Shown here: positions 1 through 20,332 of the stretch, one piece after another
How the letters are laid out: every line of letters starts with the position of its first letter
Numbering within the stretch: position 1 is the stretch's first letter
NCBI GenBank assembly: GCA_963847375.1
Contig: CAWJZO010000001.1
Location: forward strand, 1,083,904 to 1,147,903
Source of the DNA: an uncultured Chloroflexia bacterium
Lineage (GTDB): Bacteria; Chloroflexota; Limnocylindria; QHBO01
Reading direction: 5' to 3'
Length of the DNA: 64,000 nt
The notes under the pieces: model-generated
What the model was told of the DNA's origin: nothing
Database searches by the model: none
The model's input: the letters and a program-made list of their open reading frames with translations, nothing else
Program-made: the position numbers and the translations under genes

Positions 1-601
1 GATGCAGGCGATCGGTCTCCATGATGTGGGTCATGAAGAAGTCCCAGCGCTCCTGCCGCCAGAAGTGGCGGGTCGCCTCCATGCGGGCCTCGAATACATC
101 GACGAGATGGGGGAGGAAATCGGCCTTGTCCCGCCGGGCCCGCCACGGGTCGGCATCGACCTGGTAGCCGAGACCGCGGAGGACGTCGTAGACCTCGGGC
201 GAGGGAGATGCCTTCTCGAGGTTCGGGCTGAGGAAGCAGCCGATGACAAGTCCGTTCACCGCGCGAGGCGGGTAGGTGACGGGGACGTTCATGGAGAAGA
301 CGCGCTGTCCGGCCTGGCTGAGGCGGTCGAGGATCGTCGGGGCGCGAACGTCGCGAGCCGTGGGGATGTACGTCTTCTTCGTCCCCGGACGGCGATCGAG
401 AAATCCGTAGATGTTGTGCTTGCCGGGGTTCATCCCGGTCATGAACGATGCCCACGCCACCGACGAGACGTTCGGCACGGACGTGTCCATCTGTGCCATC
501 GGCCCGCGCTCGGCGATCGCGCGGAGGTTCGGCAGCTCGCCGGCCTCGAAGAGGCGCTGGACGAACGTGAACGGCACTCCGTCAAGCGCGACGACCAGCA
601 C
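1..601 (-). CDS. Type I phosphodiesterase/nucleotide pyrophosphatase (NPP, alkaline-phosphatase superfamily) family protein, paralog 2; N-terminal part only, gene runs off window start (alternative GTG start at 649)
   Basis: Manual reverse-strand translation gives V-LVVALDGVPFTFVQRLFEAGELPNLRAIAERGPMAQMDTSVPNVSSVAWASFMTGMNPGKHNIYGF..., which matches the NPP family pattern (threonine-region PxxSxxxxTG) and the N-terminus of the 1301-2677 paralog ([11 protein letters not shown]...). It is not in the ORF track because it has no stop inside the window. It lies 16-64 bp downstream of cysC on the same strand. Confidence 0.65.
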   Translation of the reverse strand, partial: MLVVALDGVPFTFVQRLFEAGELPNLRAIAERGPMAQMDTSVPNVSSVAWASFMTGMNPGKHNIYGFLDRRPGTKKTYIPTARDVRAPTILDRLSQAGQRVFSMNVPVTYPPRAVNGLVIGCFLSPNLEKASPSPEVYDVLRGLGYQVDADPWRARRDKADFLPHLVDVFEARMEATRHFWRQERWDFFMTHIMETDRLH

Positions 602-665
602 CCGCGGGCCTGCGCCGCGCGCTGATCTCTGGGGGTCCAGGAAGCTCACCTTCGCTTGCCTGACC

Positions 666-1307
666 CTACAGGTAGCCGAGGTCGCGGAGCCGGTCGGTGA
701 CCTCCGACTCCTCGTCCTCGGTGTACGCGGCGTCGGCGCCCGCCGGGAACGGCTCGGCCGCGGTGAGGTATCCGAGCTCCTCCAGCTTGCTCACGATCCG
801 GTCCACCGACGCGTCAGGCCCATCGGCGCCGTCGGTTCGAATCGTGAGCTCCGGGCGCTCGGGCGGCTCGTATGGATCGTCGACGCCGGTGAGGCCGGTC
901 ATCGTGCCCTCGCGGGCACGGCGGTAGAGGCCCTTCGAGTCACGCGCCTCGAGGGCGTCAAGCGTGGCGTCGAGGTAGACCTCCACGAAGCGCCCGACGC
1001 GTCCACGAACCTCGTCGCGCACGGCCCGATACGGGCTGATCGCCGCGGCGATCGCCACGACGCCGTTCCGGGTGAGTAGCTCACAGACCCAGCCGATGCG
1101 GCGGACGTTCGAGTCACGGTCCTCCTTGCTGAACGAGAGGCCGGCGGACAAGTGCCTCCTCACCTCATCGCCGTCGAGGACCTCGACCCGGTGGCCACGG
1201 CCAGCGAGACGCTCGGCAAGTGCCCGCGCGATCGTCGACTTGCCCGCGCCGGACAGCCCTGTCAGCCAGACCGTGAATCCGACGTCGGTCGCGCTCGAGG
1301 TCACCAT
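666..1307 (-). CDS. cysC: Adenylylsulfate (APS) kinase
   Basis: The internal Met start gives [34 protein letters not shown]..., with the Walker [10 protein letters not shown] and conserved APS-kinase blocks ([62 protein letters not shown]). A 4-nt overlap with the upstream gene suggests translational coupling. Confidence 0.9.
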
Positions 1308-2677
1308 GCGAGCGCCCGTCCACGGAGTCCATGGGGGACCGTCAGCCCGAGCGCTTCGCACAGCGTCGGCGCGATGTCGTAGATGTCGACCGTGCCGAGG
1401 TCGCGCCCGCCGAGGTCGGCGCGCGGGTCGCGGTACACGAAGATGCCTTCCTGGGCGTGGTTGGCCTCGTCCGGGCCGGTGTCGTTCTCGAACGTCCAGA
1501 TGCTGTCGAATCCGACGCTGCCGACGGACCGCCACTCGAGGTCGCCGAAGTAGATGATCAGGTCCGGCGCGATATTGCGGACCTCCCGATACAGATCCTC
1601 CGGTCGGTGGCCCACCGTCCCGATCGGCGCTCCGTCGGGGTCCGTGATTGTGGCGAGGCGGTCGATCAGCTCCTGCCGAACCCTGTCAACGTCCTGCTGA
1701 GGGATCACCCCCTCGGGCTCACGCCCGGCAACGTTGAGGAAGAGCCGGCCATAGTATCCGCCGGACGCCCATGCGCGGGTTTGCGGCCAGTCGATCTCGC
1801 AGTCTTCGAGCGGAGTGACGGCCGACGGCCGCTCCTTGAGGACGAGATAGCCCTCGTCGATGAGCCACTCGTTGATGCAGATGCCGCCGGCCATGCTCCG
1901 CGCACCGTGGTCGGAGGCGACGACGATGATCGTGTCATCGTCCACCCGCTCCAGCAGACGGGCGACACGCCGATCGACGTGGACGTGGTAGTCGTGAACC
2001 GCGTCGGAGAAGTGGGTGCCGGGCTCGTACTTCGGGTGATCGGTGGCCATGTACTTCCAGAAGGCGTGATGGATGCGATCGACCCCCATGTCGACCATCA
2101 TGAAGAAGTCGTAGCGGGCCCGATCGAGGAGGCGCTCCGCCACCTCGAAGTGGTGATCGGCGAGGCGGTAGATGTCGCGCAGGATACGGTCCTTGTCCTC
2201 TGAGCGGAAGTTCGGCACGTCGACGAGGAACTCTTCGCCAAGCCACTCGGCAATCTCCGCCTTTAGCTCCGGCGGATGGGTGTATTCGCTCTTCGCACTC
2301 GGCGTGAGGAAGCATCCGACCATCTCGCCGTTCACCGGACGGGGAGGGTAGCTCTGGGGGACCGAGAGGACGCCCACCCGGCCGCCGGCGCGGCTGACGA
2401 GGTCCCACATCCGGTCGGCCTTCACCGACGTCCCGTTCGCGATCGTCATCCGGTCGTACGAGTGGTCGGCTCGGTTGCGGAAGCCGTAGAACCCAAGCTC
2501 CCCGGGGTCGCGGCCGCTCATCATCGCGGACCACGCCGGCACGGTGATCGCCGGGATCGTGCTGCTCATCCGGCCATAGGCGCCGGTCTCCATCAGCCCG
2601 CGGATCGTCGGCAGGTCGTCTCTCCACGCGTCGAAGACGAGCTGCGGCGTCGCGCAGTCGAGGCCGACGACGAGCAT
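1301..2677 (-). CDS. Type I phosphodiesterase/nucleotide pyrophosphatase (NPP) family protein, paralog 1
   Basis: Start at internal ATG 2675-2677 ([15 protein letters not shown]...). Motifs [27 protein letters not shown] and ...VASDHGAR... fit PF01663-like alkaline-phosphatase-superfamily phosphodiesterases. Confidence 0.75.
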
Positions 2678-2914
2678 GCGACGCGCCACATCGCCGTTCA
2701 CCCGGCCACCCTCGGAACGGCGGCGCGCATCGCTGCTGCCCTGGCGGGTCGGGTGGGTGTCTCTCTCGGGGGCGCATTCCCCATGTGCGGCGGCAATCCG
2801 AGCGGCACGTTCTTCTCCTCGCGCATCAGCGGACACCACCGATCAGCACGGTCAACGTTCCTGGGAGGGCGGCCATGATAGCGCACGAGCGGTCCGGCCG
2901 CGAGGGCCGCCGCC

Positions 2915-3769
2915 TCACAGCGACCACTCCTCCAGCCGCAGCCCGGTGAGGGTTCGGAGCCGCTCGACGTCGTCACGAAGCTCGTCGCGGAGCGCCTTGC
3001 GGAGGGTCGGGTCGAGCTCGGGCCGGGCGACCCGTCGAGAGAGCTGGCCACGAGCCCGCTTTCCGGCCTCGACGAGCGGCCGCGGCAGGTGCCGTCCGAT
3101 CCGCGTCGCGCGTGCGGCCTCGAGGATGTGCCCGAGCCGATTCGTCCGCGCGCGGCGGTTGGCGACGTTGGCCTTCGTCGCCACGTCGAATTCGAACGGC
3201 TCGAGCTCGAGGAAGTCGGTGACGGCGCGCAGCGCGTCATCCGGGCCTGCCTCGAGGGACTCGGTGGTCATGACATGGATCCGCTCGATCGGGTAATGCG
3301 GGAGGTACTGGTCGAGCTGGTAGGCGTAGCGACTCTGGTCGACGTAGACGTTGCCGTGCAAGTCGGCGAACGCCTCGCTCAGTGGGCGGTCCTCGCGATG
3401 GCGGAGGTACTCGTGGAGGTACTGCGACACGGTTCGGGCGATCGGGTCGCGGACGATGTAGATGAGCCTCGCGTTGGGAATGAGCCGATGCATCCTCTCC
3501 GGCACCCCGGCGCGGTGCGGAAACTTCGTGTATCCGGGCGATGCCTCCCCTCGCACCGGCGCGTCGGGGTCGAAGTGCGCCTCGTACCACTCGACCGGCC
3601 GATCGGCGTTGCGATCGGTGAAGTAGTGGATCTCCTTCGGCTGCGACATCGCGACGGCGGGATGCTGATCGAGGTAGGCGTGGAGGCTCGTCGTTCCCGA
3701 CTTCATCGCGCCGATGATCACGAGGTTGGGCAGGGCCCCCACCGAGCCCCGGCGTGCGGTCAGCCTCAT
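2915..3769 (-). CDS. PAPS-dependent sulfotransferase
   Basis: 5'-PSB motif NLVIIGAMKSGTTSLHAYL and 3'-PB motif YIVRDPIARTVSQY (RDP). The start ATG at 3767-3769 overlaps the TGA of the upstream gene (ATGA). Confidence 0.85.
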   Translation of the reverse strand: MRLTARRGSVGALPNLVIIGAMKSGTTSLHAYLDQHPAVAMSQPKEIHYFTDRNADRPVEWYEAHFDPDAPVRGEASPGYTKFPHRAGVPERMHRLIPNARLIYIVRDPIARTVSQYLHEYLRHREDRPLSEAFADLHGNVYVDQSRYAYQLDQYLPHYPIERIHVMTTESLEAGPDDALRAVTDFLELEPFEFDVATKANVANRRARTNRLGHILEAARATRIGRHLPRPLVEAGKRARGQLSRRVARPELDPTLRKALRDELRDDVERLRTLTGLRLEEWSL

Positions 3770-5334
3770 CGGGGGCTCGCAATGCCGGAGCGCAGTGGCC
3801 GCTCGAGCGACGCGCGCAACAGGTTCACGTAGTGGCCGTCGTCGACCGCGGTGGCGGAGAGGCGAGACGACTCGCGAACGGCGCGGTGCGCCCACGCCAG
3901 CCGAATCAGCGGGCCGACGACGTCGCTGCCGATGCCGAGGCGGTCGATGTACGCGCCGACGGCCTCGACCAGGATCTCGTCCCGCTCGAGCGCGTCGAGC
4001 AGCCGCGCCGGACGCATCGCGAAGCGCCGGACCCGGGCCCGGTCGATCGCGTGCGAACGCGCGAAGTGGAAGAGGTCCCAGAGCGGCAGGCCGTCAGGGG
4101 TGGCCGCCTCCCAGTCGAGGAACGCGATCCGGCCATCGGGCCGCCGGAGGGCGTTCAGGGTCGTGGCATCGCCGTGCATGAGCACCATCGGGATCCCCTC
4201 GGACGCATGGACGATCGCTCGCGCCGAGTCACGCAGGCGATCGCGCTGCTCCCGGGTCAGCGCGTAGATCCGCTCGACTGCCCCCACCACGTCCTCGACG
4301 ATCGCGGCGAGCGCCGTCGCGCGCTCGCCGCCCCGGCTCGCGCTGTTCGCCGCGAGGTCGGTCAGCCAGCGATAGGCGGCGGCCGCGTCCGCGCGATCGG
4401 GGCGCGAAGCCGCGATCCTTCCATCGAGCGCGCTCTCCCCGACGATGCGCAGGCCCCCATGCTCGCCGCCGAACGCCACGACTGGAGCACTGCCCGGGGG
4501 CACGATGGCGTCGCGCGCGATGCGACGGAGGATCCGCTCCTCGTTCTCGAGGCGAGCGTTGTGGACCGGATCACGGGTCGTCTTCACCACGAACTCCGGC
4601 CGGGCCGCGCCAGGTCCGAAGAGGTAGAAGATCAGCTTCCGCGAGCTGTACCGCCCGCGTGCCGAGAGCCCGAAGCGGTGACGTCGCAGATCGACGCCGT
4701 CGGCCGCCGCGATCTCGACGACATAGGCGGGGAGCCTTCCCTGGCCGGTGGCGTCCGCCCGCCCGGCGAGGAGGCCGGTCCGGCGACGGGAGGCGAGGTC
4801 GGGGGCCAGTTGATCGAGCACGCGGAGGCCGCGTGGCAGGCTCGGCACGCTGATCCGTCGCTGGACGAAGTAGCGTCGGATCGCCGCCTCGTCGGCCGGG
4901 ACCGCCGAGCGGGCCTCGCCGCGCGCGGGCGTGAGCCAGAAGCGGTCGACTCGCCCGAGGCCCGCCGTCCTGAGGGCCGCCTCGATCGGGTCGCGCCCCT
5001 GCACCTCCACGTAGACACGTCCACCAGGGCGCAGGGCCCGTGCGATCGCCGCCAGAGCGTCGTCGCTGATCGGTCGCTCGACGCCGTCGGTGACGTAGAT
5101 GAGGTCAACCGATGTCGGATCCAGGACGGCGAGGTCTGAGGCCGTCACCACCCGGACCCGTCCCGAGATCCGCTCGAGCGTCGCACGCGCTGCAGGCGAT
5201 GGCGCACCGACGCAGACGACCTCGTCGAGCTCGAGCGAGTCGAGCAGATAGGTCCACGCCGCGCCGGCGGCCGAGTCCCGGACGTTGCTGCCGACCGCCG
5301 CCGTGATCCTGGCCGCACCGGGCTCGGAGCTCAT
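3766..5334 (-). CDS. Two-domain protein: N-terminal class-I SAM-methyltransferase-like fold with degenerate motif I, fused to a C-terminal aminoglycoside-phosphotransferase (APH/ChoK/WaaP-like) kinase domain
   Basis: N-terminus: VVCVGAPSP...VRVVTASD...VDLIYVTD...LRPGGRVYVEV resembles MTase motifs I/II/III. C-terminus: Brenner motif LMHGDATTLNAL and DWE (IAFLDWEAATPDGLPLWDLFHF), typical of APH-fold small-molecule or sugar kinases. Confidence 0.7.
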   Translation of the reverse strand: MSSEPGAARITAAVGSNVRDSAAGAAWTYLLDSLELDEVVCVGAPSPAARATLERISGRVRVVTASDLAVLDPTSVDLIYVTDGVERPISDDALAAIARALRPGGRVYVEVQGRDPIEAALRTAGLGRVDRFWLTPARGEARSAVPADEAAIRRYFVQRRISVPSLPRGLRVLDQLAPDLASRRRTGLLAGRADATGQGRLPAYVVEIAAADGVDLRRHRFGLSARGRYSSRKLIFYLFGPGAARPEFVVKTTRDPVHNARLENEERILRRIARDAIVPPGSAPVVAFGGEHGGLRIVGESALDGRIAASRPDRADAAAAYRWLTDLAANSASRGGERATALAAIVEDVVGAVERIYALTREQRDRLRDSARAIVHASEGIPMVLMHGDATTLNALRRPDGRIAFLDWEAATPDGLPLWDLFHFARSHAIDRARVRRFAMRPARLLDALERDEILVEAVGAYIDRLGIGSDVVGPLIRLAWAHRAVRESSRLSATAVDDGHYVNLLRASLERPLRSGIASPR

Positions 5335-6893
5335 GGACGAGCCCCGAACATGCGCCGACCGATGCGCGATCGCAGCAGGGCCGGGAACGTATCACCGACC
5401 CGGAGCACGTCGCGATTGAGGGTGACCACGGCGAGCGTCACGACCGTCACGAAGGCCATGTGGACGGCCAGCGGGAGATCGGCGAGTGCGGCGACGATCG
5501 CGAGGAAGACGACCCCCATGACGATCACGACGTAGACGCGCAGTGTTGCGCGCTCGAAGACGCTGATCCCGGTCGAGAGGCGAAGCCCGGCCTGCTTGAG
5601 CACGTTGTGGACCACCAGGGTCGCGGTCGTGCCGATGGCGGCTCCGAGCGCGCCGAACTGCGGAATCAACAGGAGGTTGAGGACGACGTTGGTGACGGCC
5701 GCCGCGAGGTTCAGGGAGACGATGTACCGCAGTCTGCCGACCACCTTCAGCGTCAGTCCATTGAACCCGAGGGCCACATTGAAGTAGTACCCGAAGGAGA
5801 GCAGCGCAAGGTAGGTGGCCGACTCGCGATATCGCTCCTCGTACAGGAAGACCGTAAGCGGCTCGGCCAGGGAGAACGTCACCGCGAAGATCGGGAAGGA
5901 GAAGACTGCCATCCAGGTCGCGGTGCGCCAGTACAGCCGGTTGATGCCATCGCGGTCGCCCCTCGCGAAGAACCGGGATGCGAGCGGTGTGAACAGCAGG
6001 GCGAAGCTCGTGAAGACGACCTGGTTGAGAAGCGCCGGCTGGTGGACCACCCGGAACGCGGCCACCTCGGTCGTGCCCTGGAAGTACTCCAACAAGATGA
6101 CGTCCGACGCAGCGAGGACGACGAAGACGAGGTCCGAGCTCAGCAGGGGGAGGGCGAACCCGAAGACTTCGCGAGCGGGTACGACGATGCCGCCAGACCG
6201 CAGGTGGTCGATGAGGCCGCGCGAGACGAGCAGCCTCCACAGGATCACGCTGTACACGACCACGAGGATCAGCCCCGCGGCGACGTACCCGGCAGCCAGG
6301 ACCTCGACGCCGCTGCCGGACGCGATGAGCAGTCCCACCGCGGCGAGCTTCAGCAGCGGGCCCAGCAGGTGCTTGCGGACGAACACCGCCCAGGCGTCGC
6401 CGAACACCGCGAACATCCCGATGAGCAGGCCGTCGTAGGCCTGGATGGGTGCGAGCGCGGCCAGGATGACGAGGACGGTGACGGCCTCCGGGTCGTCGAG
6501 GAGCGTTCCCGCCAGCACGCCCTGAAGCCCGATGACAACGGCCACGAATGCGATCCCGAGTCCGATCACGGTGCCGAAGGCAAGGACGATGGTCCCAAAG
6601 AGGCGGTCGTACTGGCCACGCTCCTCGTAGATCGGAACGAACCGGGTGATCGCACGGTCGAGGCCGAGCGTCACGATGCTCTCGCCGACAGCGACGATCG
6701 AGAGGGCGTAGGCAAACGCGCCGAAGCCCTCCTCGGAGAGGTAGCGAACGATGAGCACCTGGATGACGAAGTTGATGAGCAGCGAGATGCCGCGCCCTCC
6801 GGTCAGGAGCGTCGAGCCACGAAGCTGGCGCGAGGTCTCGTCCGAGTCGTCGGGTGCGATCGTGGGGCCGGCGTCCTCCCGCGGGGAGGTCAT
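5331..6893 (-). CDS. Polysaccharide biosynthesis protein / Wzx-like flippase (MOP superfamily)
   Basis: A 520-aa polytopic membrane protein with about 14 predicted hydrophobic helices and a Polysacc_synt-like N-terminal region (LLTGGRGISLLINFVIQVLIVRYLSEEGFGAFAYALSIV). ATGA overlaps on both sides. Confidence 0.85.
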   Translation of the reverse strand: MTSPREDAGPTIAPDDSDETSRQLRGSTLLTGGRGISLLINFVIQVLIVRYLSEEGFGAFAYALSIVAVGESIVTLGLDRAITRFVPIYEERGQYDRLFGTIVLAFGTVIGLGIAFVAVVIGLQGVLAGTLLDDPEAVTVLVILAALAPIQAYDGLLIGMFAVFGDAWAVFVRKHLLGPLLKLAAVGLLIASGSGVEVLAAGYVAAGLILVVVYSVILWRLLVSRGLIDHLRSGGIVVPAREVFGFALPLLSSDLVFVVLAASDVILLEYFQGTTEVAAFRVVHQPALLNQVVFTSFALLFTPLASRFFARGDRDGINRLYWRTATWMAVFSFPIFAVTFSLAEPLTVFLYEERYRESATYLALLSFGYYFNVALGFNGLTLKVVGRLRYIVSLNLAAAVTNVVLNLLLIPQFGALGAAIGTTATLVVHNVLKQAGLRLSTGISVFERATLRVYVVIVMGVVFLAIVAALADLPLAVHMAFVTVVTLAVVTLNRDVLRVGDTFPALLRSRIGRRMFGARP

Positions 6894-8242
6894 CGGCCGC
6901 GAGCCGCTCGCTTCAGCGACCGCTCCACGTAACGCCGCCAGATGAGCCAGGTCACCTCCCGTTGGACCTCATCCAGGCTCCGGTCGGTGTCGACGACGGC
7001 GGCGTTCGGGAGCCGATCACTCAGTGCGAGGTACGCCTGCCGCTGGGACTCGAGCCTTTCCGGATCGTGCTCCTGCTTTCGGGCGTAGAGCACCGGACCT
7101 GGAGCGTCGAGGGTGACGACAAGATCGGGTCGCGGCACTGTGTGGGCGAGCGCCCAGCGGCGCAACCGCGTGGTCATGGGCGCGTTCGTGCTTTCCCGCA
7201 GGAGCGCGTCGTACCCGAAGCGGTCGTAGACCACGAGCCGTCCCCGCCGACGATGGAAGGCGGCACCCGCGTACCTGCGCCACTGCCGAATGAGATACCC
7301 CGAGGTGCGGGCCAGGTGCTCGATGGGGCCGCGGGGAGATCGCCGCCGTGCCTGGCCTCCGCCGTAGAGACCCATGTACACCGGCCGGGTGGGAAAGAAG
7401 AAGGTCTCCTCGAGATGGGCAGCCATCGACGACTTTCCGGTCCCGTCCGGACCGAGGAACGCGACGCTCAATCCCGGCTCGACAGCGAAGCGGCGAACCT
7501 TCGTGAGTCGCCGCGCCGCGCCGCGCGTCAGGCGTCGGGCGAGCGGCCGGCCGACGCGCCAGCGCCGCGCGTCGAGGATGTCCTGGCCCGCGCCGAGAAG
7601 CTCGCGCCACCGACCCTGCGCCGCGGCGGCGATCGCCCGCCCGGGACTCCACTCGACCGGCGCATTCGGCGCGAACCAGGCGGCCAGCGGTCCCTCGCCC
7701 GTTGCCTGCGCCGCGAGCTCGCGGAGGACGGTCGCATGGCGGTCGGGCAGATCGCGGCGATCGAGGATGCAGTGGAGGAGCAGCGCCCAGAAACGATCTT
7801 CGGCGGCCAGTCGCCAGGTGCCGTGATCCGAGACTCGCCGGGCGAGGCACGCGTCCGCGGTGCCGGTTTCGATCGTCGCGTGAGGACCGAACGACAGCTC
7901 CGTGACGACGTCGAACTTCACGAACGAGCCGGTGTCCCGGTCGTAGGCGACGTAGAACCGGTGGCTGCCGCGTCCCCAGGCGGCAAGTTGGAGGTAGCCG
8001 AGACTTCGAAGAAGCTCGCTGGCACGGGGGAGATCTCGCTTCGAGATGAGGAGGTCCACGTCCTCCCCCGTGACGACGGGCGTCGTCTCGCCGCGCAGCA
8101 GGCACCAGCGGACCTGGTCCTGGTCGAGCTCGGCGAAGGTGCGCCGGATCGCCTCGAGGTCGCTCGCTTGCCTCGCCGCGGGGCCGATCTCGGGCGGCGC
8201 GGCGCCTCGGGGTCGCGGGGTCATCGGCCGATGACGATACAT
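6890..8242 (-). CDS. Fusion protein: N-terminal Pol-beta-type nucleotidyltransferase-like domain plus C-terminal P-loop NMP-kinase-like (thymidylate/APS-kinase fold) domain
   Basis: N-terminus: LRGETTPVVTGEDVDLLIS aligns with the NTase hG[GS]...[DE]h[DE]h motif. C-terminus: Walker A LGPDGTGKSS, a DRF/DRY-like VVYDRFGYD, and a lid DLVVTLDAPGPVLYARK as in TMK/APS kinases. The overlapping plus-strand ORF 6854-8263 is rejected. Confidence 0.6.
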   Translation of the reverse strand: MYRHRPMTPRPRGAAPPEIGPAARQASDLEAIRRTFAELDQDQVRWCLLRGETTPVVTGEDVDLLISKRDLPRASELLRSLGYLQLAAWGRGSHRFYVAYDRDTGSFVKFDVVTELSFGPHATIETGTADACLARRVSDHGTWRLAAEDRFWALLLHCILDRRDLPDRHATVLRELAAQATGEGPLAAWFAPNAPVEWSPGRAIAAAAQGRWRELLGAGQDILDARRWRVGRPLARRLTRGAARRLTKVRRFAVEPGLSVAFLGPDGTGKSSMAAHLEETFFFPTRPVYMGLYGGGQARRRSPRGPIEHLARTSGYLIRQWRRYAGAAFHRRRGRLVVYDRFGYDALLRESTNAPMTTRLRRWALAHTVPRPDLVVTLDAPGPVLYARKQEHDPERLESQRQAYLALSDRLPNAAVVDTDRSLDEVQREVTWLIWRRYVERSLKRAARGR

Positions 8243-8357: not shown

Positions 8358-8633
8358 TCACTCGCCGCGATGACGAATGATGAGGAACGCCGCGAATCCG
8401 GCGACCGCGACGAAGAGGAGGGTGGCGATGGTGACCTCGATGTCGTCGGGCACCAGATCGGCCCGGATGGCGACGGCCACCGCTGCGGCCACGCCACCAA
8501 TCAGTGCGCCAATTGCCAGCTTGACCACCGCACCATGCCACCCACCGTGGCTGAGCCGAAGCCCGACGAGGGTCAGGCCAACGAGCGACGCGCCAAGTAT
8601 CATGCCGATGACCGCGTTCTGCACCGGGCACAT
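8358..8633 (-). CDS. Small integral membrane protein (3 TM), unknown function
   Basis: Hydrophobic helices (IGMILGASLVGLTLVGL, AIGALIGGVAAAVAVAI, IATLLFVAVAGFAAFLII). The start is uncertain; alternatives are at 8603 and 8687. Confidence 0.45.
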   Translation of the reverse strand: MCPVQNAVIGMILGASLVGLTLVGLRLSHGGWHGAVVKLAIGALIGGVAAAVAVAIRADLVPDDIEVTIATLLFVAVAGFAAFLIIRHRGE

Positions 8634-8650: not shown

Positions 8651-10633
8651 ATGGGCACGCCGGTCCGGGACCGACGCCGCTCGACATATGGAGATCGGCA
8701 CATCGTGAGACGTCTGGCCATCCTGCTGGTGACCGTCATGCTCCTGGCGAGCATCGGTATCGCCTTGGCGCTCGCATCCAACGAGACGAGTGGCCCGACG
8801 GCGAATCCATCCTCGGTTGTCCCCTCCTTCTCGCCCGGCCCCCTCGGCGGCCCTGTGGGTGAGGTGCCTGGGGCGCCGGAGTCGTTCGCGTTCGGAGAGG
8901 GCGGCTCGCCCGACCCCGCGGGCACGGGAGCGCAGAGCCGGCTCTGGTTCAATGACGGCAGCTGGTGGGGCGTGTTCCTGACGAGCAGCAGCGCGGATCA
9001 GAGGATCTTCCGGCTCGACGCGGCGTCGCTCACCTGGGTCGACACCGGCGCCGTGGTGGACGATCGACCCTACGCCAAGATCGACGCGCAGTGGGACGGG
9101 GAGCGCCTGCTGGTCGCGAGCGCCGGGGAGGAAGCCGACGAGCGCCACGCGCTTCGGGTGGATCGGTTCAGCTACAACCCGGCCTCGGGCGAATACCGGA
9201 GGAACGCGAACTTCCCGGTGCCGGTGACCGCCGCGGGGGTTACGGGAGCGACGCTGGCACGCGCCGCCGACGGGCGGCTCTGGGTCGCCTATCGCGACGG
9301 CGACCGACTCATCCTGGACCATTCCCTGGAATCCGACCTCTCGTGGCACGGCCCGATCGCGCTCGACGTCGCGACCGGCCCCGTCGACGCGGTCGCGTTG
9401 GCAGCCGTGGGACGGCGCATCGGCCTCGTCTGGACGCTGACGACGGGAGACTCCCTGCATGTTGCCTGGCTCGACCCTGCGCTGGGGACGGACGGGTGGT
9501 CGGCCGCGGCCCCCGTCCCGGTTCCGGGGCTCGAGTTCGGCGAGGACGAGATCGGGATCGCCGTCGATCGCTCGCCCGGTGCCGAACGCCTGTACGTCGG
9601 GCTCAAGACGAACGCTGGCGAGACGGCCGACCGCAGGCGCCTCGCGCCGCAGGTGGTCGTGGCGGAGCTCCGTCCCGGAGAGGATCCGGCGACGTATCTC
9701 GTCGGCCGCGTCGAGGACCAGCACGGGGGGCCGAGCCTTGTCGTCGATGGCGAGGCTCGATTGCTTCATGTCGTCATGGAGGCGCCAGCCGGCGGAGGCA
9801 CGATCTACCGCAAGACCGCCTCGCTGGACCGTCTCGAGTTCGGTGGCGGTCTCGGGCAGGCGCTCATCCCGGCGACCGAGGCGCTGCCTGGTCTCGGGTC
9901 GCCCACGGCGACGAAACAGAGCGTCGACGGGGGCAGCGGGTTGGTCGTCGCCGCGACGGATCGCGGGGTCGATCGATGGGGCTTCGGCTCACTGGGTGTG
10001 GCTCCCGTCACGGCGGAACCGCCACAGGGCCCAGACGACAGGGCCATGCTCGTCAATTACACCTTCAACGGGCTTGCCGTGGGCGATGATCCCCCGGGAT
10101 GGGAGGTCGACGGCGATCCGCTCCCGGCGTTCACGGTCGTGAGCCTCACCGGATCCGACAGCTCAGCCCGTCTGACCGCGACGACAGCCGATGCGAGGAC
10201 GTGCGCGCGATTTGCCGCCGTCGAGGGCGACGTGCTACGGGCGGGCGCGGACGTGCTGTTCAACGAGCCCTCGACAGGTGACATGAAGCTTCTTCAGCTG
10301 CGAGGGCGCGAGGGAGAAGTCGCCTCGATCCGGGTGCGCGAGGGCGAGGTGGTGTATGCGGACGGCGACACCCGAGTGCGGAGCGGGCTCGTTCTTGAGC
10401 CGGGTCGCTGGTACCGTGTTGTGCTGGGGCTCGATCTTGCCGCGCGGACATTCGGCGTCCAGGTCCGCGACGCGGTCGATGATGCGATCCTGTTGGAAGA
10501 TGCCGGCCTCGCCTGGGCGGCGGAGGTCGAGGCTGTCGACCGCGTGTGTGCCGAGCTGTCGCCGCAACCGGGCCTCGAGCTCTATCTCGATGAAGTGAGG
10601 GTTCGGTCGCGGCTGGCGGAGGGTGAGGGCTGA
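8651..10633 (+). CDS. Secreted/membrane-anchored BNR(Asp-box)-like beta-propeller protein, paralog 1, with a C-terminal lectin/LamG-like domain
   Basis: N-terminal signal anchor. Conserved SRLWFNDGSWWGVF...LDAASLTWVDTG...RFSYNPASGEY block shared with the ORFs at 14586 and 24427, plus degenerate Asp-box-like S/TxDxxxW segments. Confidence 0.7.
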   Translation: MGTPVRDRRRSTYGDRHIVRRLAILLVTVMLLASIGIALALASNETSGPTANPSSVVPSFSPGPLGGPVGEVPGAPESFAFGEGGSPDPAGTGAQSRLWFNDGSWWGVFLTSSSADQRIFRLDAASLTWVDTGAVVDDRPYAKIDAQWDGERLLVASAGEEADERHALRVDRFSYNPASGEYRRNANFPVPVTAAGVTGATLARAADGRLWVAYRDGDRLILDHSLESDLSWHGPIALDVATGPVDAVALAAVGRRIGLVWTLTTGDSLHVAWLDPALGTDGWSAAAPVPVPGLEFGEDEIGIAVDRSPGAERLYVGLKTNAGETADRRRLAPQVVVAELRPGEDPATYLVGRVEDQHGGPSLVVDGEARLLHVVMEAPAGGGTIYRKTASLDRLEFGGGLGQALIPATEALPGLGSPTATKQSVDGGSGLVVAATDRGVDRWGFGSLGVAPVTAEPPQGPDDRAMLVNYTFNGLAVGDDPPGWEVDGDPLPAFTVVSLTGSDSSARLTATTADARTCARFAAVEGDVLRAGADVLFNEPSTGDMKLLQLRGREGEVASIRVREGEVVYADGDTRVRSGLVLEPGRWYRVVLGLDLAARTFGVQVRDAVDDAILLEDAGLAWAAEVEAVDRVCAELSPQPGLELYLDEVRVRSRLAEGEG

Positions 10634-11586
10634 TGCGAATACTCGTGACGGGCGCTGCCGGCTTCGTCGGTTCTCACCTCGCGGAGCGGCTCCTCATCGA
10701 CGGCCATGAGGTTGTCGCTCTCGACTGCTTCACCGACTACTACCCACGAGCTGTCAAGGAGCGCAACCTGGCGGGGCTGATGCGTTCGCCGGGCTTTCGG
10801 TTCCACGAGCTCGACTTGCGCACCGACCCACTGGATGCCGCGCTCGAGGGCGTGGACGTCGTGGTCAACCAGGCGGCGATGGCTGGGCTCATGCGGAGCT
10901 GGACCGACTTCGACAGCTACGTCAGCTGCAACCTGATCGGCCTTCAGCGCCTGGTCGACGCCTCCCGTGACGTGCGGCAGTTCGTCCACATCTCGACCTC
11001 GTCGGTGTATGGCACGGATGCCGTCGGCGACGAGGACACTCCGACGAGGCCGACATCTCCGTACGGGGTCACGAAGCTCGCGGCCGAGAAGCTGCTTCTT
11101 GCGCAGGTCGCCGTGCACGGCTTCCCCGCGACGATCCTTCGCTATTTCTCGATCTACGGGCCACGCCAACGTCCGGATATGGCGTACCACATCTTCATCG
11201 AGGCCCTCATGGACGGCCAGCCGATCACGGTCTATGGCGACGGGCTGCAGTCACGCTCGAACACGTTTGTGACCGACGCCGTCGCGGGCACTGTGGCGGC
11301 GATCGACGGAGCGCGCGTCGGAGAGGTCTATAACATCGGCGGCGGCCAGGAGCTGGGGCTGTTGGAGGCCATCGGCATCATCGCCGACGAGCTGGGCGCG
11401 CAACCCACGATCCGCCATGAGCCGGCACGACCCGGCGACCAGCGTCGTACGTGGGCCGACACGTCCCGAGCGCGCGAAGCCTTCAGCTACCGCCCACTCG
11501 TCGAGCCGGCACACGGGCTCGCCGAGCAGGTCCGCTGGCAAGCCGGGTTGAGGTCCCTGGAGCCGGCCAGATCCTCAGGCGCCTGA
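10633..11586 (+). CDS. NAD-dependent nucleotide-sugar epimerase/dehydratase (SDR family)
   Basis: MRILVTGAAGFVGSHLAERL (Rossmann GxxGxxG) and catalytic YxxxK (SPYGVTKLAAE). ATGA overlap with the upstream propeller gene. Confidence 0.85.
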   Translation: MRILVTGAAGFVGSHLAERLLIDGHEVVALDCFTDYYPRAVKERNLAGLMRSPGFRFHELDLRTDPLDAALEGVDVVVNQAAMAGLMRSWTDFDSYVSCNLIGLQRLVDASRDVRQFVHISTSSVYGTDAVGDEDTPTRPTSPYGVTKLAAEKLLLAQVAVHGFPATILRYFSIYGPRQRPDMAYHIFIEALMDGQPITVYGDGLQSRSNTFVTDAVAGTVAAIDGARVGEVYNIGGGQELGLLEAIGIIADELGAQPTIRHEPARPGDQRRTWADTSRAREAFSYRPLVEPAHGLAEQVRWQAGLRSLEPARSSGA

Positions 11587-12195
11587 GCGGCGCGCGACGG
11601 CCATCACGGTCCGCGCGAGAATCCAGATGTCCAGCCGGAACGACATCCGCTCGATGTAATCGATGTCGAGTCGAGCCCGCTCATCGAAGGTCGCCTCGTT
11701 CCGACCGGTCACCTGCCAGAGGCCGGTGAGGCCGGGCATGACCTCGAGGCGCTCGGTGTGCCACAGCTCGTACGTGCTCGCCGCGAACGACGTCGGTCGC
11801 GGGCCGACGAGTGACATCTCCCCACGGACCACGTTGAGGACCTGCGGCAGCTCATCGAGGCTGGTCTTCCGGAGGAATCGACCCACACGGGTCACGCGCG
11901 GATCATCGATGACCTTGAAGTCCGGAGCCGGAACGATGCTCAGGTGCTGGAGGCTCGCCTTCAGCTCCTCGGCGTTCGTCACCATGGTCCGGAACTTGTA
12001 CATCCGGAACCTGCGGCCGTGGCGGCCGGTGCGCTTCTGGGCGAAGAGGATCGGGCCCGGCGAATCGATGCGGATCGCCACCGCGCAGATCGCCAGGGCG
12101 ATGGCGATCAGGGGAAGGAATGCGATGCATGCTGCGAGGTCGAATGCTCGCTTGCCGATCGCGTAGCGAGGCCGGAACGAGAGGACATGCGGCAT
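11575..12195 (-). CDS. Initiating phosphoglycosyl transferase (bacterial sugar transferase, PglC/WbaP C-terminal type)
   Basis: Single N-terminal TM, then the conserved KFRTM...DELPQ...GEMSLVGPRP motifs of the undecaprenyl-phosphate sugar-1-phosphate transferase family. Confidence 0.85.
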   Translation of the reverse strand: MPHVLSFRPRYAIGKRAFDLAACIAFLPLIAIALAICAVAIRIDSPGPILFAQKRTGRHGRRFRMYKFRTMVTNAEELKASLQHLSIVPAPDFKVIDDPRVTRVGRFLRKTSLDELPQVLNVVRGEMSLVGPRPTSFAASTYELWHTERLEVMPGLTGLWQVTGRNEATFDERARLDIDYIERMSFRLDIWILARTVMAVARRSGA

Positions 12196-20199: not shown

Positions 20200-20332
20200 A
20201 AGCCCGTGCTGTATCCTTTTCGGACAAGCTCGATGTCTCCCTGCCGAGCCAGTGGCTACGCCAGGAAGTAGGACCGAGACAGTGCCGCAAGCCGGAAACC
20301 GCCCGCCGACCACTCGCCGCCGACGGCTCCGC

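What the first reader, a model, noticed from the sequence alone, without database searches (positions are those of the whole stretch)
1..8242. Leftward operon predicted to sulfate and phosphorylate a glycan: NTase/kinase fusion, Wzx flippase, MTase-like/APH-kinase fusion, sulfotransferase, NPP, CysC, NPP
Seven genes on the minus strand are joined by ATGA/GTGA overlaps or very short gaps (<1-648, 666-1307, 1301-2677, 2915-3769, 3766-5334, 5331-6893, 6890-8242). APS kinase next to a PAPS-type sulfotransferase implies a sulfated product. The Wzx-type flippase and the adjacent PglC, GT4, epimerase and UDP-sugar-dehydrogenase genes imply that the acceptor is an undecaprenyl-linked cell-envelope glycan. 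An APH-fold kinase (WaaP-like), two NPP-family phosphodiesterases and an NTase-like/P-loop-kinase fusion have no counterpart in the standard O-antigen, capsule or teichoic-acid pathways I know. I cannot match this gene set to any described sulfated-polysaccharide locus (nodPQ/nodH, stf0 and kps types are organised differently). Sat/CysDN is absent from the window, so the operon probably continues past position 1.
Basis: partly seen in the sequence, partly recalled or inferred. Interest (0 to 1): 0.8.

Follow-up and report, generated by a model that had tools for sequence, protein, structure and literature searches.

The report
Predicted sulfated surface-glycan operon
The seven-gene operon is real and most likely adds sulfate, and probably phosphate, to a cell-surface sugar polymer of a Chloroflexota-like bacterium; its two 'phosphodiesterase' genes belong to a widespread, unstudied gene cassette that sits with the enzymes that activate sulfate.

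Summary
Seven minus-strand genes sit at the stated coordinates with the stated domains, and four of the six junctions are ATGA overlaps. One junction, g4 to g3, is a 213-237 nt gap. An eighth small membrane-protein gene (8358-8624) heads the unit.

The operon is part of a roughly 26-kb Wzx/Wzy-type glycan locus and has two layers.

- **Conserved core.** An NTase/dTMP-kinase-like fusion, Wzx, and a WbdD-like pseudo-methyltransferase/kinase recur with GT4/GT2/Wzy in more than 50 species of many phyla.
- **Sulfation add-on in a few Chloroflexota.** It comprises a heparan-sulfate-3-O-sulfotransferase-like enzyme plus NPPa-CysC-NPPb.

The NPP pair is not a glycan phosphodiesterase set. It is three-quarters of a widespread cassette, Sat-NPPa-CysC-NPPb. 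That cassette also occurs as Sat-NPPa, CysC-NPP and NPP-pyruvate kinase-Sat fusion proteins, and its enzymes share a C-terminal "RLRxLGYL" tail.

Syntenic relatives continue leftward with a sulfatase-like enzyme, a Wzz-like protein, GT2 and Wzy. They do not continue with sat/cysDN.

A sulfated glycan is the best-supported product, but no chemistry exists. The biochemical role of NPPa and NPPb is open. I classify this as a new variant of a known kind.

The parts
2..649 (-). g1, NPPb: the N-terminal 216 aa of an alkaline-phosphatase-superfamily (PF01663) enzyme. The gene runs off the left edge of the window. The invariant Ser in 'PNVSSVAW' is the predicted nucleophile.
   Evidence: Pfam 3.7e-22. 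It is 80% identical to the L081 NPPb. Family alignment A5.
666..1307 (-). g2, APS kinase (CysC)
   Evidence: PF01583 3e-57. NF002059 scores 256 bits against a cut-off of 244. E=1.7e-59 to a solved 'probable adenylyl-sulfate kinase' (PDB 5cb6), with the DGD, R, F and ISPY motifs kept.
669..731 (-). C-terminal tail of CysC, '[21 protein letters not shown]'. The same motif ends different enzymes of these cassettes.
   Evidence: Regex survey of all loci: about 30 CysC, 4 NPPa, about 19 sulfatase-like and 11 NPP552-type proteins end with this motif.
1301..2677 (-). g3, NPPa: a cytoplasmic AP-superfamily enzyme of an uncharacterised, very conserved clade. An alternative GTG start lies at 2701.
   Evidence: PF01663 3.5e-41. 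A3 alignment: 67% mean column identity, with invariant D7, T45, N68, D200, H204, D256, H257 and H407. T45 aligns to the PhnA nucleophile. Sat fusions.
2678..2914 (-). Non-coding gap between g4 and g3, the only long junction of the operon. Relatives carry DHH or Sat at the position upstream of NPPa.
   Evidence: No remnant of Sat or DHH is detectable. No promoter- or terminator-like site lies in the gap.
2915..3769 (-). g4, PAPS-type carbohydrate sulfotransferase
   Evidence: PF13469 and PF00685. The best solved relatives are heparan sulfate 3-O-sulfotransferases at about 1e-19. The K-x-G-T (5'-PSB), E-x-H and R-D-P..S (3'-PB) motifs are kept.
3766..5334 (-). g5, a WbdD-like two-domain protein: a degenerate class-I methyltransferase-like Rossmann domain (about residues 30-150) plus an APH/eukaryotic-like kinase domain (about residues 220-520)
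   Evidence: AF2 pLDDT 90. The Foldseek top hit is WbdD 4azt over both domains, followed by APH enzymes and LicA. Kinase residues K251, E265, H387-G-D389, N394 and D407 are invariant. The GxGxG motif and the acidic beta-2 residue are not conserved.
5331..6893 (-). g6, Wzx-type (MOP/Polysacc_synt) flippase
   Evidence: PF01943 4.9e-20 and PF13440. It lies directly upstream of the g5 homologue in 56 of 80 species loci.
6890..8242 (-). g7, a fusion of a pol-beta-type nucleotidyltransferase (MenT/ANT(2'')/LnuA-like) and a dTMP-kinase-like P-loop kinase
8358..8624 (-). Small 88-aa hydrophobic (probably membrane) protein gene at the head of the leftward unit
   Evidence: Conserved and syntenic in L081, L083 and L085.
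8651..10633 (+). 660-aa protein of unknown function, divergent from the operon. It shares a roughly 370-aa domain with the proteins at 14433-16613 and 24427-26349.
   Evidence: No Pfam hit. It scores 990 bits to the L001 orthologue. Paralogy is shown.
10633..11586 (+). NAD-dependent sugar epimerase/dehydratase
   Evidence: PF01370 1e-53.
11575..12195 (-). Small, PglC-like polyprenyl-phosphate phosphoglycosyltransferase (initiating enzyme)
   Evidence: PF02397 1.4e-64.
12199..12846 (-). 215-aa conserved protein of unknown function with a hydrophobic N-terminus
   Evidence: Syntenic in L001, L081, L083 and L085. No Pfam hit.
12857..14314 (-). UDP-sugar 6-dehydrogenase
   Evidence: PF03721, PF00984 and PF03720.
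14433..16613 (+). Protein with PKD and CBM96 domains, probably extracellular and glycan-binding or glycan-processing
16713..17747 (+). Second APH-fold kinase. It corresponds to the 387-aa APH protein that follows the g7 homologue in Kouleothrix-type loci.
   Evidence: PF01636 5e-18. 106 bits to the L084 APH.
17744..18934 (+). GT4 glycosyltransferase
   Evidence: 52% identical to the L084 GT4a.
18940..20199 (+). GT4 glycosyltransferase (start approximate)
   Evidence: 52% identical to the L084 GT4b.
20045..21625 (+). Alginate-lyase-like protein (start uncertain)
   Evidence: PF05426 2e-11.
24427..26349 (-). 640-aa paralogue of the PKD/CBM96 protein, at the far end of the locus
   Evidence: 231 bits to the protein at 14433-16613.

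Best explanation
**What the locus is.** Window positions <1 to about 26.3 kb are a Wzx/Wzy-dependent locus for a cell-surface or extracellular heteropolysaccharide. The host is a high-GC bacterium, probably Chloroflexota and Limnocylindria-like; the taxon is inferred from the best named homologues.

**Assembly of the repeat unit (inferred from family knowledge).**
- A PglC-like phosphoglycosyltransferase starts a repeat unit on polyprenyl phosphate.
- The GT4 enzymes here, and a GT2 expected left of the window, extend it with sugars supplied by the UDP-sugar dehydrogenase and the epimerase.
- The unit is then decorated on the cytoplasmic face before Wzx flips it.

**Decoration has two layers.**
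- *Ancient core.* The core consists of g5, a WbdD-like protein with an intact kinase site and a degenerate methyltransferase domain; the second APH kinase; and g7, an NTase plus dTMP-kinase-like fusion. The fold and the intact catalytic residues are shown. That these proteins phosphorylate or nucleotidylate the glycan is inferred.
- *Sulfation add-on.* CysC turns APS into PAPS. The 3-O-sulfotransferase-like g4 transfers sulfate to a sugar hydroxyl. The enzyme identities are shown; the acceptor is inferred. APS must come from a Sat or CysDN encoded elsewhere in the genome.

**NPPa and NPPb.** They are the alkaline-phosphatase-superfamily partners of a widespread Sat-NPPa-CysC-NPPb sulfate-activation cassette. 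The genomic linkage and the gene fusions are shown. Their reaction is unknown. My preferred guess is hydrolysis of PPi or another by-product to pull the unfavourable ATP-sulfurylase and nucleotidyl-transfer steps. The alternative is that they are APS- or PAPS-dependent transferases.
For: - **Gene identities:**
- **CysC is orthodox:** 204 bits, E=1.7e-59, to a solved 'probable adenylyl-sulfate kinase' (PDB 5cb6) with the APS-binding motifs kept.
- **g4 is a carbohydrate sulfotransferase:** it keeps the PAPS-binding and catalytic E-x-H residues of heparan sulfate 3-O-sulfotransferases.
- **Synteny:** relatives at 46-55% g5 identity (L081, L083, L085, L001) and L092 keep the locus. Three of them (L081, L083, L092) carry an NrnA-type DHH PAP phosphatase where the window has g4. 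A DHH PAP phosphatase completes PAPS pathways elsewhere (PMC10322725).
- **Published rule:** PAPS genes plus sulfotransferases inside a polysaccharide cluster mark a chemically proven sulfated capsule in Vibrio (PMC11641403).
- **Core conservation:** Wzx lies directly upstream of g5 in 56 of 80 species loci and g7 is present in 51 of 80, together with GT4, GT2 and Wzy.
- **g5 and g7 folds and invariant catalytic residues:**
- **NPP linkage to sulfate activation:**
  - Of 80 metagenome NPPa loci, 35 have Sat just upstream and 41 have CysC just downstream.
  - Full PUA-Sat-NPPa fusion proteins exist on L104, L110 and L128 and as P0333.
  - CysC-NPP and NPP-pyruvate kinase-Sat fusions exist.
  - A stand-alone Sat|NPPa|CysC|NPPb unit sits among housekeeping genes.
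  - Different cassette enzymes share the same C-terminal tail.
Against: - There is no chemical evidence for sulfate or phosphate on any Chloroflexota glycan.
- No Sat or CysDN lies in the window or in the syntenic relatives' loci, so the APS supply is assumed.
- The sulfotransferase is not fixed in position or presence. None was found within the sampled stretch of L081, L052 or L059.
- NPPa-NPPb plus the sulfatase-like enzyme also occur behind g5 in loci with no CysC (L064, L173). NPPa is also fused to or adjacent to GT2 in Roseiflexus-type loci with no sulfate genes. The NPP role may therefore not be limited to sulfation.
- Wzy is not in the window.
- The WbdD match has a low TM-score (0.25-0.30) because the domain orientations differ.
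- The 213-237 nt gap means g3-g1 may be transcribed separately.
Confidence: 0.6

Rival explanations
1. NPPa and NPPb, and the sulfatase-like third enzyme of relatives, are themselves the modifying transferases. In this reading they are alkaline-phosphatase-superfamily enzymes that take an NMP-X anhydride made next door, APS or PAPS. They pass the sulfuryl group, or a phospho group, through a covalent Thr/Ser intermediate to the glycan. The canonical sulfotransferase g4 would then be an optional extra.
For: - Fusion to Sat places NPPa next to the APS producer. Fusion to GT2 (P0316) places it next to the glycan maker.
- Loci with CysC and the NPP genes but no canonical sulfotransferase in range exist: L081, L052, L059, L092 and L094.
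- No sulfotransferase recurs near 17 stand-alone cassettes.
- The bimetallo site and the nucleophile are intact: T45 in NPPa and S62 in NPPb.
- From general knowledge, covalent phospho-X transfer is established in this superfamily (EptA, LtaS, BcsG).
Against: - No alkaline-phosphatase-superfamily sulfotransferase is known.
- A Thr-O-sulfate intermediate would be a poor donor.
- NPPa is extremely conserved, at 57-78% identity across contexts. That fits a small universal substrate better than variable glycans.
- The pyruvate-kinase fusion (P0338) suggests energy coupling rather than transfer.
- The window does have a complete canonical sulfotransferase.
Confidence: 0.15
2. The NPPa-CysC-NPPb block is a general sulfate-activation or assimilation module that merely landed in the glycan locus. 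The PAPS it makes serves sulfur assimilation or sulfation of a non-glycan acceptor such as a lipid, small molecule or peptide. The polysaccharide itself is not sulfated.
For: - The same cassette occurs on its own among housekeeping genes (L172). Its neighbours show no glycan bias.
- The 213-237 nt gap could uncouple g3-g1 from the upstream genes.
Against: - In the window and in at least eight relatives the block sits inside the glycan locus, directly behind g5 or DHH and in front of the Wzz-like, GT2 and Wzy genes.
- g4 overlaps g5 by ATGA, and g4 is of the carbohydrate 3-O-sulfotransferase type.
- No PAPS reductase or sulfite reductase lies nearby.
Confidence: 0.12
3. The CysC-like kinase does not act on APS. 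Instead it 3'-phosphorylates another nucleotide-activated group. The model is Cj1415 of Campylobacter, which makes 3'-phospho-CDP-phosphoramidate for capsule O-methyl-phosphoramidate. On this reading the operon installs a phosphate-based substituent. It would use the APH kinases and the g7 NTase to build the donor and the NPP enzymes to transfer or trim it.
For: - From my own knowledge (Taylor and Raushel, Biochemistry 2017), Cj1415 is a precedent for a CysC homologue in a capsule locus. One search shows the term is used in Campylobacter capsule papers.
- The operon is rich in kinases and has an NTase.
Against: - g2 is close to a solved 'probable adenylyl-sulfate kinase' (PDB 5cb6; 204 bits, E=1.7e-59) and passes the NCBIfam CysC cut-off.
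- In relatives this CysC type sits next to, or is fused with, true ATP sulfurylase.
- A PAPS-type sulfotransferase and, in relatives, a PAP phosphatase are present.
- No glutamine kinase, amidohydrolase or cytidylyltransferase homologues turned up in the Pfam scans.
Confidence: 0.05

Closest known systems
Sulfated polysaccharide gene clusters that combine PAPS-synthesis genes with sulfotransferases: Vibrio sp. KMM 8419 capsule (PMC11641403), the synechan xss cluster of Synechocystis (PMC8205485), and the predicted wps-1 cluster of Actinoplanes missouriensis (PMC13390465)
   Same: - The polysaccharide assembly genes carry one or more PAPS-type sulfotransferases in the same locus.
- The Vibrio cluster also has a dedicated second cysC.
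- xss and wps-1 are Wzx/Wzy-type.
- wps-1 also holds a protein-kinase-like protein and a methyltransferase.
   Different: - The Vibrio cluster is ABC/kps-type and brings cysDN with it.
- xss has no PAPS genes and no kinases.
- None of these papers reports alkaline-phosphatase-superfamily (NPP) genes, an NTase/dTMP-kinase-like fusion or a WbdD-like protein.
- Here there is no ATP sulfurylase in the locus, and the host is a Chloroflexota-like monoderm.
- Here the chemistry is unknown.
WbdD, the bifunctional kinase/methyltransferase that caps the E. coli O9a polymannose O-antigen (PDB 4azt, 4ax8)
   Same: - The domain order is the same: a class-I methyltransferase fold followed by a eukaryotic-like/APH kinase fold.
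- WbdD is the best structural match to the g5 model across both domains.
- The kinase catalytic residues are intact.
   Different: - g5 lacks the conserved SAM-binding GxGxG and acidic residues.
- g5 has no long C-terminal coiled coil.
- g5 is coupled to Wzx by an ATGA overlap instead of to an ABC-transporter pathway.
- Sequence identity is only 11-14%, and the overall TM-score is low.
Canonical PAPS pathway, Sat + CysC (+ PAP phosphatase), including the Methanothermococcus thermolithotrophicus pathway with a DHH-family PAP phosphatase (PMC10322725)
   Same: - g2 is an orthodox APS kinase.
- The cassette relatives carry an orthodox PUA+ATP-sulfurylase Sat.
- Three syntenic relatives carry an NrnA-type DHH protein.
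   Different: - Two alkaline-phosphatase-superfamily enzymes are interleaved (Sat-NPPa-CysC-NPPb) and are often fused to Sat or CysC.
- The CysC carries an extra acidic 'RLRxLGYL' tail.
- I found no description of this arrangement.
Nucleotide pyrophosphatase/phosphodiesterase (NPP) and phosphonoacetate hydrolase PhnA, members of the alkaline phosphatase superfamily
   Same: - Both window proteins match PF01663.
- The metal ligands and the Thr/Ser nucleophile are conserved. NPPa T45 aligns with the PhnA nucleophile Thr.
   Different: - NPPa and NPPb appear cytoplasmic, on the basis of N-termini that show no obvious signal peptide or membrane segment. I ran no predictor.
- They are very distant from any solved structure (best hit PhnA, E=2e-4, N-terminal part only).
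- Their genomic partners are Sat, CysC and glycan genes, not phosphonate or nucleotide-salvage genes.
Campylobacter jejuni O-methyl-phosphoramidate capsule modification (Cj1415-Cj1418)
   Same: A CysC-family kinase is encoded in a surface-polysaccharide locus together with other kinases and a nucleotidyltransferase.
   Different: - g2 is far closer to true APS kinases and is linked to true Sat.
- The other pathway enzymes are absent.
- A PAPS-type sulfotransferase is present.

Membership tests
Wzx/Wzy-dependent polysaccharide locus | Initiating polyprenyl-phosphate phosphoglycosyltransferase | tested here: met
   11575-12195, PF02397 1.4e-64.
Wzx/Wzy-dependent polysaccharide locus | Glycosyltransferases and nucleotide-sugar enzymes in the same locus | tested here: met
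   Two GT4 genes, a UDP-sugar dehydrogenase and an epimerase.
Wzx/Wzy-dependent polysaccharide locus | Wzx (MOP-family) flippase | tested here: met
   g6, PF01943 and PF13440.
Wzx/Wzy-dependent polysaccharide locus | Wzy polymerase and a Wzz/PCP protein | tested here: inconclusive
   No homologue lies in the window. Syntenic relatives place Wzy_C and a Wzz-like 480-aa protein just beyond the point where the window ends.
PAPS-dependent carbohydrate sulfotransferase (g4) | 5'-phosphosulfate-binding K-x-G-T motif and 3'-phosphate-binding R-D-P...S motif | tested here: met
   'IIGAMKSGTTSL' and 'VRDPIARTVSQY' align to the same motifs of 3-OST-1 and 3-OST-5.
PAPS-dependent carbohydrate sulfotransferase (g4) | Catalytic base (E-x-H of 3-O-sulfotransferases) | tested here: met
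   'KEIHYF' aligns to 'QEIHFF' and 'NEVHFF'.
PAPS-dependent carbohydrate sulfotransferase (g4) | Sulfate transfer from PAPS to a sugar acceptor | not testable with these tools
   Needs an enzyme assay.
APS kinase CysC (g2) | Family score above the curated cut-off, with the P-loop and the DGD...R / F / ISPY substrate motifs | tested here: met
   NF002059 scores 256.4 against 244. TIGR00455 scores 206 against 139. Alignment to 5cb6.
WbdD-type chain-terminating kinase/methyltransferase (g5) | Methyltransferase fold followed by a kinase fold in one chain | tested here: met
   AF2 model plus the Foldseek top hit 4azt over 507 columns.
WbdD-type chain-terminating kinase/methyltransferase (g5) | Functional SAM-binding site (GxGxG loop, acidic residue after beta-2) | tested here: not met
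   The family consensus is C-V-G-x-P-S. Positions 64-67 are variable. Methyltransferase Pfam models score only below threshold.
WbdD-type chain-terminating kinase/methyltransferase (g5) | Intact kinase catalytic residues | tested here: met
   K251, E265, H387-G-D389, N394 and D407 are invariant in 28 sequences.
WbdD-type chain-terminating kinase/methyltransferase (g5) | Works with an ABC-transporter O-antigen pathway and carries a long C-terminal coiled coil | tested here: not met
   The gene overlaps wzx. No ABC transporter was found in the Pfam-scanned ORFs of the window. The protein ends at residue 522 with short helices.
NPP / alkaline phosphatase superfamily (g1, g3) | Bimetallo-site ligands and a Thr/Ser nucleophile | tested here: met
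   NPPa has invariant D7, T45, N68, D200, H204, D256, H257 and H407. T45 aligns to the PhnA nucleophile Thr. NPPb has invariant D23 and S62, and a nearly invariant D263-H264-G265 ('SDHG') and H406.
NPP / alkaline phosphatase superfamily (g1, g3) | Nucleotide pyrophosphate or phosphodiester hydrolysis as the physiological reaction | not testable with these tools
   There is no close characterised relative.
Sat-NPPa-CysC-NPPb cassette (defined here) | NPPa immediately followed by a tailed CysC and then NPPb | tested here: met
   Window order g3-g2-g1. The same order is seen in L001, L052, L081-L085, L092, L094, L098, L104, L106, L112, L117, L146, L167 and L172.
Sat-NPPa-CysC-NPPb cassette (defined here) | ATP sulfurylase directly upstream of, or fused to, NPPa | tested here: not met
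   The window has g4 plus a 237-nt gap at that position. There is no Sat anywhere in the window and no remnant of one.
MeOPN-type capsule modification (Cj1415-1418) | CysC-like kinase together with glutamine kinase, amidohydrolase and cytidylyltransferase | tested here: not met
   Only the CysC-family member is present. The Pfam scans of the locus show none of the others.

The most novel reading that the evidence does not exclude
NPPa and NPPb define a previously unrecognised enzymatic component of bacterial sulfate activation and sulfation.

The evidence is a widespread four-gene unit, Sat-NPPa-CysC-NPPb. It also occurs as Sat-NPPa, CysC-NPP and NPP-pyruvate kinase-Sat fusion proteins. Its enzymes are tied together by a shared acidic 'Y..EE....RLRxLGYL' C-terminal tail.

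In this reading the alkaline-phosphatase-fold proteins do something the textbook PAPS pathway lacks. They might be a dedicated PPi- or PAP-removing machine assembled into a complex. More radically, they might be APS- or PAPS-dependent sulfuryl or phosphoryl transferases. In a subset of Chloroflexota this unit has been plugged into a conserved Wzx/Wzy glycan locus to make a sulfated envelope polymer.
Probability: 0.25. Interest if true: 0.8.

Novelty: new variant of a known kind. Interest (0 to 1): 0.6.

Why it matters
- **Sulfated bacterial polysaccharides are rare.** They are considered rare outside cyanobacteria and a few marine Gammaproteobacteria, and they are sought as heparin-like biomaterials. 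A Chloroflexota locus with its own PAPS supply widens where to look.
- **The sulfate-activation pathway may be incomplete as taught.** The pathway (Sat, CysC, PAP phosphatase) is regarded as complete. A conserved pair of alkaline-phosphatase-fold enzymes interleaved with, and fused to, Sat and CysC in many environmental bacteria points to a missing step or helper. That can be tested directly with recombinant proteins.
- **A conserved core awaits a product.** The g7/Wzx/g5 core is found in many phyla, and no product is known for it.

Tried and rejected
- **Source contig.** I tried to fetch it to read left of position 1. Exact look-ups of g3 and g5 found no stored contig. Cluster look-up gave no names. 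The genome scan did not contain the source species; the best locus was 47% identical.
- **NPP genes as glycan phosphodiesterases linked to the g5 kinase.** I dropped this as the main reading once the Sat and CysC linkage and the fusions appeared.
- **The DHH protein or NPPb as the only PAP phosphatase.** This could not be resolved.
- **A decayed Sat or DHH gene in the 2678-2914 gap.** Nothing was found.
- **Promoters or terminators in 1-9000.** The simple scans found nothing useful.
- **Structured RNAs.** Rfam gave no hit in the window.
- **Size of the fusion family.** I tried to measure it with the 50%-identity representative library. NPPa is so conserved that the family collapses into few clusters, and only one full-length fusion representative (P0333) is visible, so the count is uninformative.
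- **Literature.** Searches for COG3379, PF14907, or Sat/CysC together with alkaline-phosphatase-family or nucleotide-pyrophosphatase genes found no description.
- **A GT4 on the minus strand at 8600-9769.** Rejected. GC3 and orthologues support the plus-strand 660-aa gene instead.

Full report
**1. The observation**

Their third-codon-position G+C is 0.83-0.90, as expected for real genes in such a genome. g5 and g4 match publicly predicted proteins exactly, and g7 matches one at 100% identity apart from a start called 6 codons downstream. All three come from one 2.24-Mb contig.

Pfam and NCBIfam confirm most domain calls:
- g1 and g3 are PF01663 alkaline-phosphatase-superfamily proteins. They are paralogues at 33% identity.
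- g2 is an APS kinase that scores above the curated CysC cut-off.
- g4 is a sulfotransferase.
- g6 is a Wzx-type flippase.
- g7 has a nucleotidyltransferase-like domain and a P-loop.

The junctions g7/g6, g6/g5 and g5/g4 are ATGA overlaps. g3/g2 is ATGGTGA. g2/g1 is a 17-nt spacer. g4/g3, however, is a 213-237 nt gap. A conserved 88-aa hydrophobic protein gene (8358-8624) precedes g7.

tblastn finds no ATP sulfurylase anywhere in the window. The Pfam scans, which covered most ORFs including the long ones, show no sulfate-adenylyltransferase or CysDN family.

**2. The wider locus**

The operon is part of a glycan locus that runs to about 26.3 kb, where cysS begins. Besides the operon it holds:
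- a 660-aa protein of unknown function (8651-10633, plus strand);
- an epimerase/dehydratase;
- a small PglC-like phosphoglycosyltransferase;
- a 215-aa protein of unknown function;
- a UDP-sugar dehydrogenase;
- a PKD/CBM96 protein;
- a second APH-fold kinase;
- two GT4 glycosyltransferases;
- an alginate-lyase-like protein;
- a 640-aa paralogue of the PKD/CBM96 protein.

The rest of the window is housekeeping.

**3. The two unusual kinases**

*g5.* An AlphaFold model built on 28 homologues has a mean pLDDT of 90.
- Its best structural match in the PDB is WbdD, the kinase/methyltransferase that caps the E. coli O9a O-antigen. The match covers both domains. Aminoglycoside phosphotransferases and choline kinase LicA follow.
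- The kinase residues K251, E265, H387-G-D389, N394 and D407 are invariant.
- The N-terminal Rossmann domain has lost the GxGxG loop and the acidic residue that bind SAM. Methyltransferase models match it only below threshold.
- g5 therefore works like the kinase half of WbdD but is not a WbdD. It has no coiled coil and no ABC-transporter pathway, and its gene overlaps wzx.

*g7.* The model has a pLDDT of 87.
- The carboxylates D63 and D111 are invariant and D61 is nearly so. The P-loop and the D-R motif are invariant.
- Both halves therefore look catalytically competent.

**4. A conserved core and an add-on**

I searched one genome for each of 185,579 species with the g5 family. 165 loci encode a relative, and the best 80 were kept. 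They come from Chloroflexota, Actinomycetota, Acidobacteriota, KSB1, Myxococcota, Planctomycetota and other phyla.

In those 80 loci:

| Feature | Loci |
|---|---|
| Wzx directly upstream of g5 | 56 |
| g7 homologue | 51 |
| NPP genes | 7 |
| CysC | 3 |
| g4-like sulfotransferase | 2 |

A GT4, a GT2 and Wzy lie in between in most of these loci. A Kouleothrix locus shows the core: g7 | APH | GT4 | unknown | GT4 | GT2 | Wzy | Wzx | g5 | alginate-lyase-like | CBM96 protein. It has no sulfate gene.

Closer relatives, at 46-55% g5 identity, are syntenic with the window over 16 kb and show what lies beyond position 1. Their order is ... g7 | Wzx | g5 | (DHH) | NPPa | CysC | NPPb | sulfatase-like enzyme | Wzz-like protein | GT2 | (sulfotransferase) | Wzy. 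They do not contain sat or cysDN.

The DHH protein takes the place of the window's g4. It is an NrnA-type PAP phosphatase, with E about 1e-40 to solved NrnA enzymes. This is the kind of enzyme that completes the PAPS pathway of Methanothermococcus (PMC10322725).

**5. The sulfation enzymes**

- g2 scores 204 bits (E=1.7e-59) against a solved 'probable adenylyl-sulfate kinase' (PDB 5cb6) and keeps the substrate motifs.
- g4 is most similar to heparan sulfate 3-O-sulfotransferases. It keeps their PAPS-binding and catalytic residues.
- Having both PAPS genes and sulfotransferases inside a polysaccharide cluster has been put forward as the hallmark of sulfated polysaccharide synthesis. That proposal rests on a chemically proven sulfated capsule in Vibrio (PMC11641403).
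- The synechan cluster of Synechocystis has sulfotransferases in a Wzx/Wzy cluster (PMC8205485).
- A 2026 paper predicts the same for an Actinoplanes cluster that also contains a kinase-like protein. It notes that sulfated polysaccharides are otherwise known only from cyanobacteria (PMC13390465).

A sulfated glycan is therefore the best reading. It remains an inference.

**6. What the NPP genes are**

*The family.*
- It is huge. The g3 (NPPa) search returned 7,675 hits among the 8,000 candidates scored.
- It is very conserved, at 57-78% identity in Limnocylindria, Roseiflexus, Chloroflexus and Herpetosiphon. The mean column identity is 67%.
- All bimetallo-site ligands are invariant. The invariant Thr aligns with the nucleophile of phosphonoacetate hydrolase.
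- No solved structure is close.

*Linkage to sulfate activation.*
- I fetched 80 NPPa loci from metagenomes. 35 have an ATP sulfurylase immediately upstream and 41 have CysC immediately downstream. NPPb often comes next. Many of these contigs are short, so these counts are lower bounds.
- The unit Sat | NPPa | CysC | NPPb also stands alone among housekeeping genes.
- In 17 such loci the neighbours show no recurrent sulfotransferase, glycosyltransferase, PAPS reductase or transporter.

*Fusion proteins.*
- PUA-Sat-NPPa occurs as a single protein of 856-875 aa on at least four independent sequences.
- One protein is CysC-NPP.
- One is NPP-pyruvate kinase-PUA-Sat.
- A distant relative is fused to a sugar-phosphate nucleotidyltransferase.

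*Linkage to glycan genes without sulfate genes.*
- NPPa | NPPb | sulfatase-like enzyme follow g5 in loci without CysC (L064, L173).
- In Roseiflexus-type loci NPPa is fused or adjacent to a GT2, next to methyltransferases, a Wzx and another NPP.

*A shared tail.* A C-terminal motif links these proteins. It is an acidic stretch with a Tyr, followed by 'RLRxLGY[LIV]' at the very end. It ends:
- the cassette CysC, including the window's g2;
- NPPa itself where CysC is absent;
- the sulfatase-like enzyme;
- the Roseiflexus-type NPP.

The solved kinase 5cb6 ends at the kinase core. A shared docking peptide, and so a complex, is the simplest reading.

**7. Mechanism**

*Shown.*
- The gene identities.
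- The intact active sites.
- The two-layer architecture of the locus.
- The Sat/CysC linkage and the fusions of the NPP pair.

*Inferred.*
- The repeat unit is built on polyprenyl phosphate.
- It is phosphorylated and perhaps nucleotidylated by g5, the second APH kinase and g7.
- It is sulfated by g4 with PAPS from g2, and then flipped by Wzx.

*Open: what NPPa and NPPb do.* I consider two options.
- **Helper hydrolases.** They would remove PPi or PAP and so pull the unfavourable adenylyl transfer. This is the common denominator of Sat, sugar-phosphate nucleotidyltransferases and the g7 NTase, all of which release PPi. The pyruvate-kinase fusion also points to energy coupling.
- **Transferases.** They would use APS or PAPS through a covalent Thr/Ser intermediate. 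This would explain the fusions both to Sat and to GT2, and the loci that lack a canonical sulfotransferase.

I lean to the first option but cannot exclude the second.

A Campylobacter Cj1415-like role for g2 is unlikely. g2 is close to true APS kinases and is linked to true Sat.

**8. Verdict**

- The general kind, a polysaccharide locus with its own PAPS enzymes and a sulfotransferase, is known.
- The combination with a WbdD-like kinase, an NTase/kinase fusion and the NPP pair is a new variant.
- I found no description of the Sat-NPPa-CysC-NPPb cassette behind it.

Limits:
- There is no chemistry.
- The source genome's sulfate genes could not be inspected.

Noticed in passing
window 669-731 (minus strand), and the C-termini of many genes in L001-L173: A conserved C-terminal tail, about 'x-Y-[ST]-x-[DE]-E-E-x-x-[VIL]-x-x-R-L-[RKA]-x-L-G-Y-[LIV]*', ends four different enzyme types: the cassette CysC, NPPa where CysC is absent, the sulfatase-like enzyme, and the Roseiflexus-type 552-aa NPP. 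It could be a docking peptide. Its Tyr in an acidic context could also be a modification site.
   Followed up: partly
L104 8768-11395; L110 7388-9994; L128 2470-5082; P0333; P0347; P0338; P0458; P0316: NPPa-family domains occur in several multi-domain fusions: PUA+ATP-sulfurylase+NPP, APS-kinase+NPP, NPP+pyruvate-kinase barrel+PUA+ATP-sulfurylase, sugar-phosphate nucleotidyltransferase+NPP, and GT2+NPP.
   Followed up: partly
window 8358-8624 (minus strand): An 88-aa hydrophobic protein gene lies between the divergent 660-aa gene and g7. It is conserved and syntenic in three relatives. Its function is unknown.
   Followed up: partly
window 8651-10633 (+), 14433-16613 (+), 24427-26349 (-): Three paralogous proteins of 640-730 aa share a roughly 370-aa domain with no Pfam match. 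One also has PKD and CBM96 domains, and one has a weak S-layer-homology hit. They are probably extracellular glycan-binding or glycan-processing proteins of the locus.
   Followed up: no
window 12199-12846 (minus strand): A 215-aa protein with a hydrophobic N-terminus and no family match is always found between the UDP-sugar dehydrogenase and the phosphoglycosyltransferase in the syntenic relatives.
   Followed up: no
L081 16224-17669 and its orthologues: The 'sulfatase' (PF00884) enzyme that follows NPPb in relatives has Thr-x-P-x-His where true sulfatases have Cys/Ser-x-P-x-Arg, and it has no obvious signal peptide. It is therefore unlikely to be a formylglycine sulfatase. It also sits directly behind g5 in loci that lack the NPP genes (L007, L038, L057).
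   Followed up: partly
L090/L091 (Roseiflexus-type), L105, L114, L115, L120, L121: A second conserved cassette occurs in hot-spring Chloroflexota, with no sulfate-activation genes nearby: NPPa | GT2 | methyltransferases | Wzx | 552-aa NPP | 509-aa protein of unknown function.
   Followed up: no
window 39155-42325 (minus strand): A 1056-aa ORF has only a C-terminal carotenoid-synthesis-protein (PF04240) match. It lies near two beta-ketoacyl synthase genes (32714-35464) and an acyltransferase (35287-36279).
   Followed up: no
window 411-1079 (+) and other long antisense ORFs: Long ORFs with high GC3 lie on the opposite strand of real genes, for example 411-1079(+) and 8600-9769(-). These are the usual shadow ORFs of a 70% G+C genome.
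   Followed up: yes
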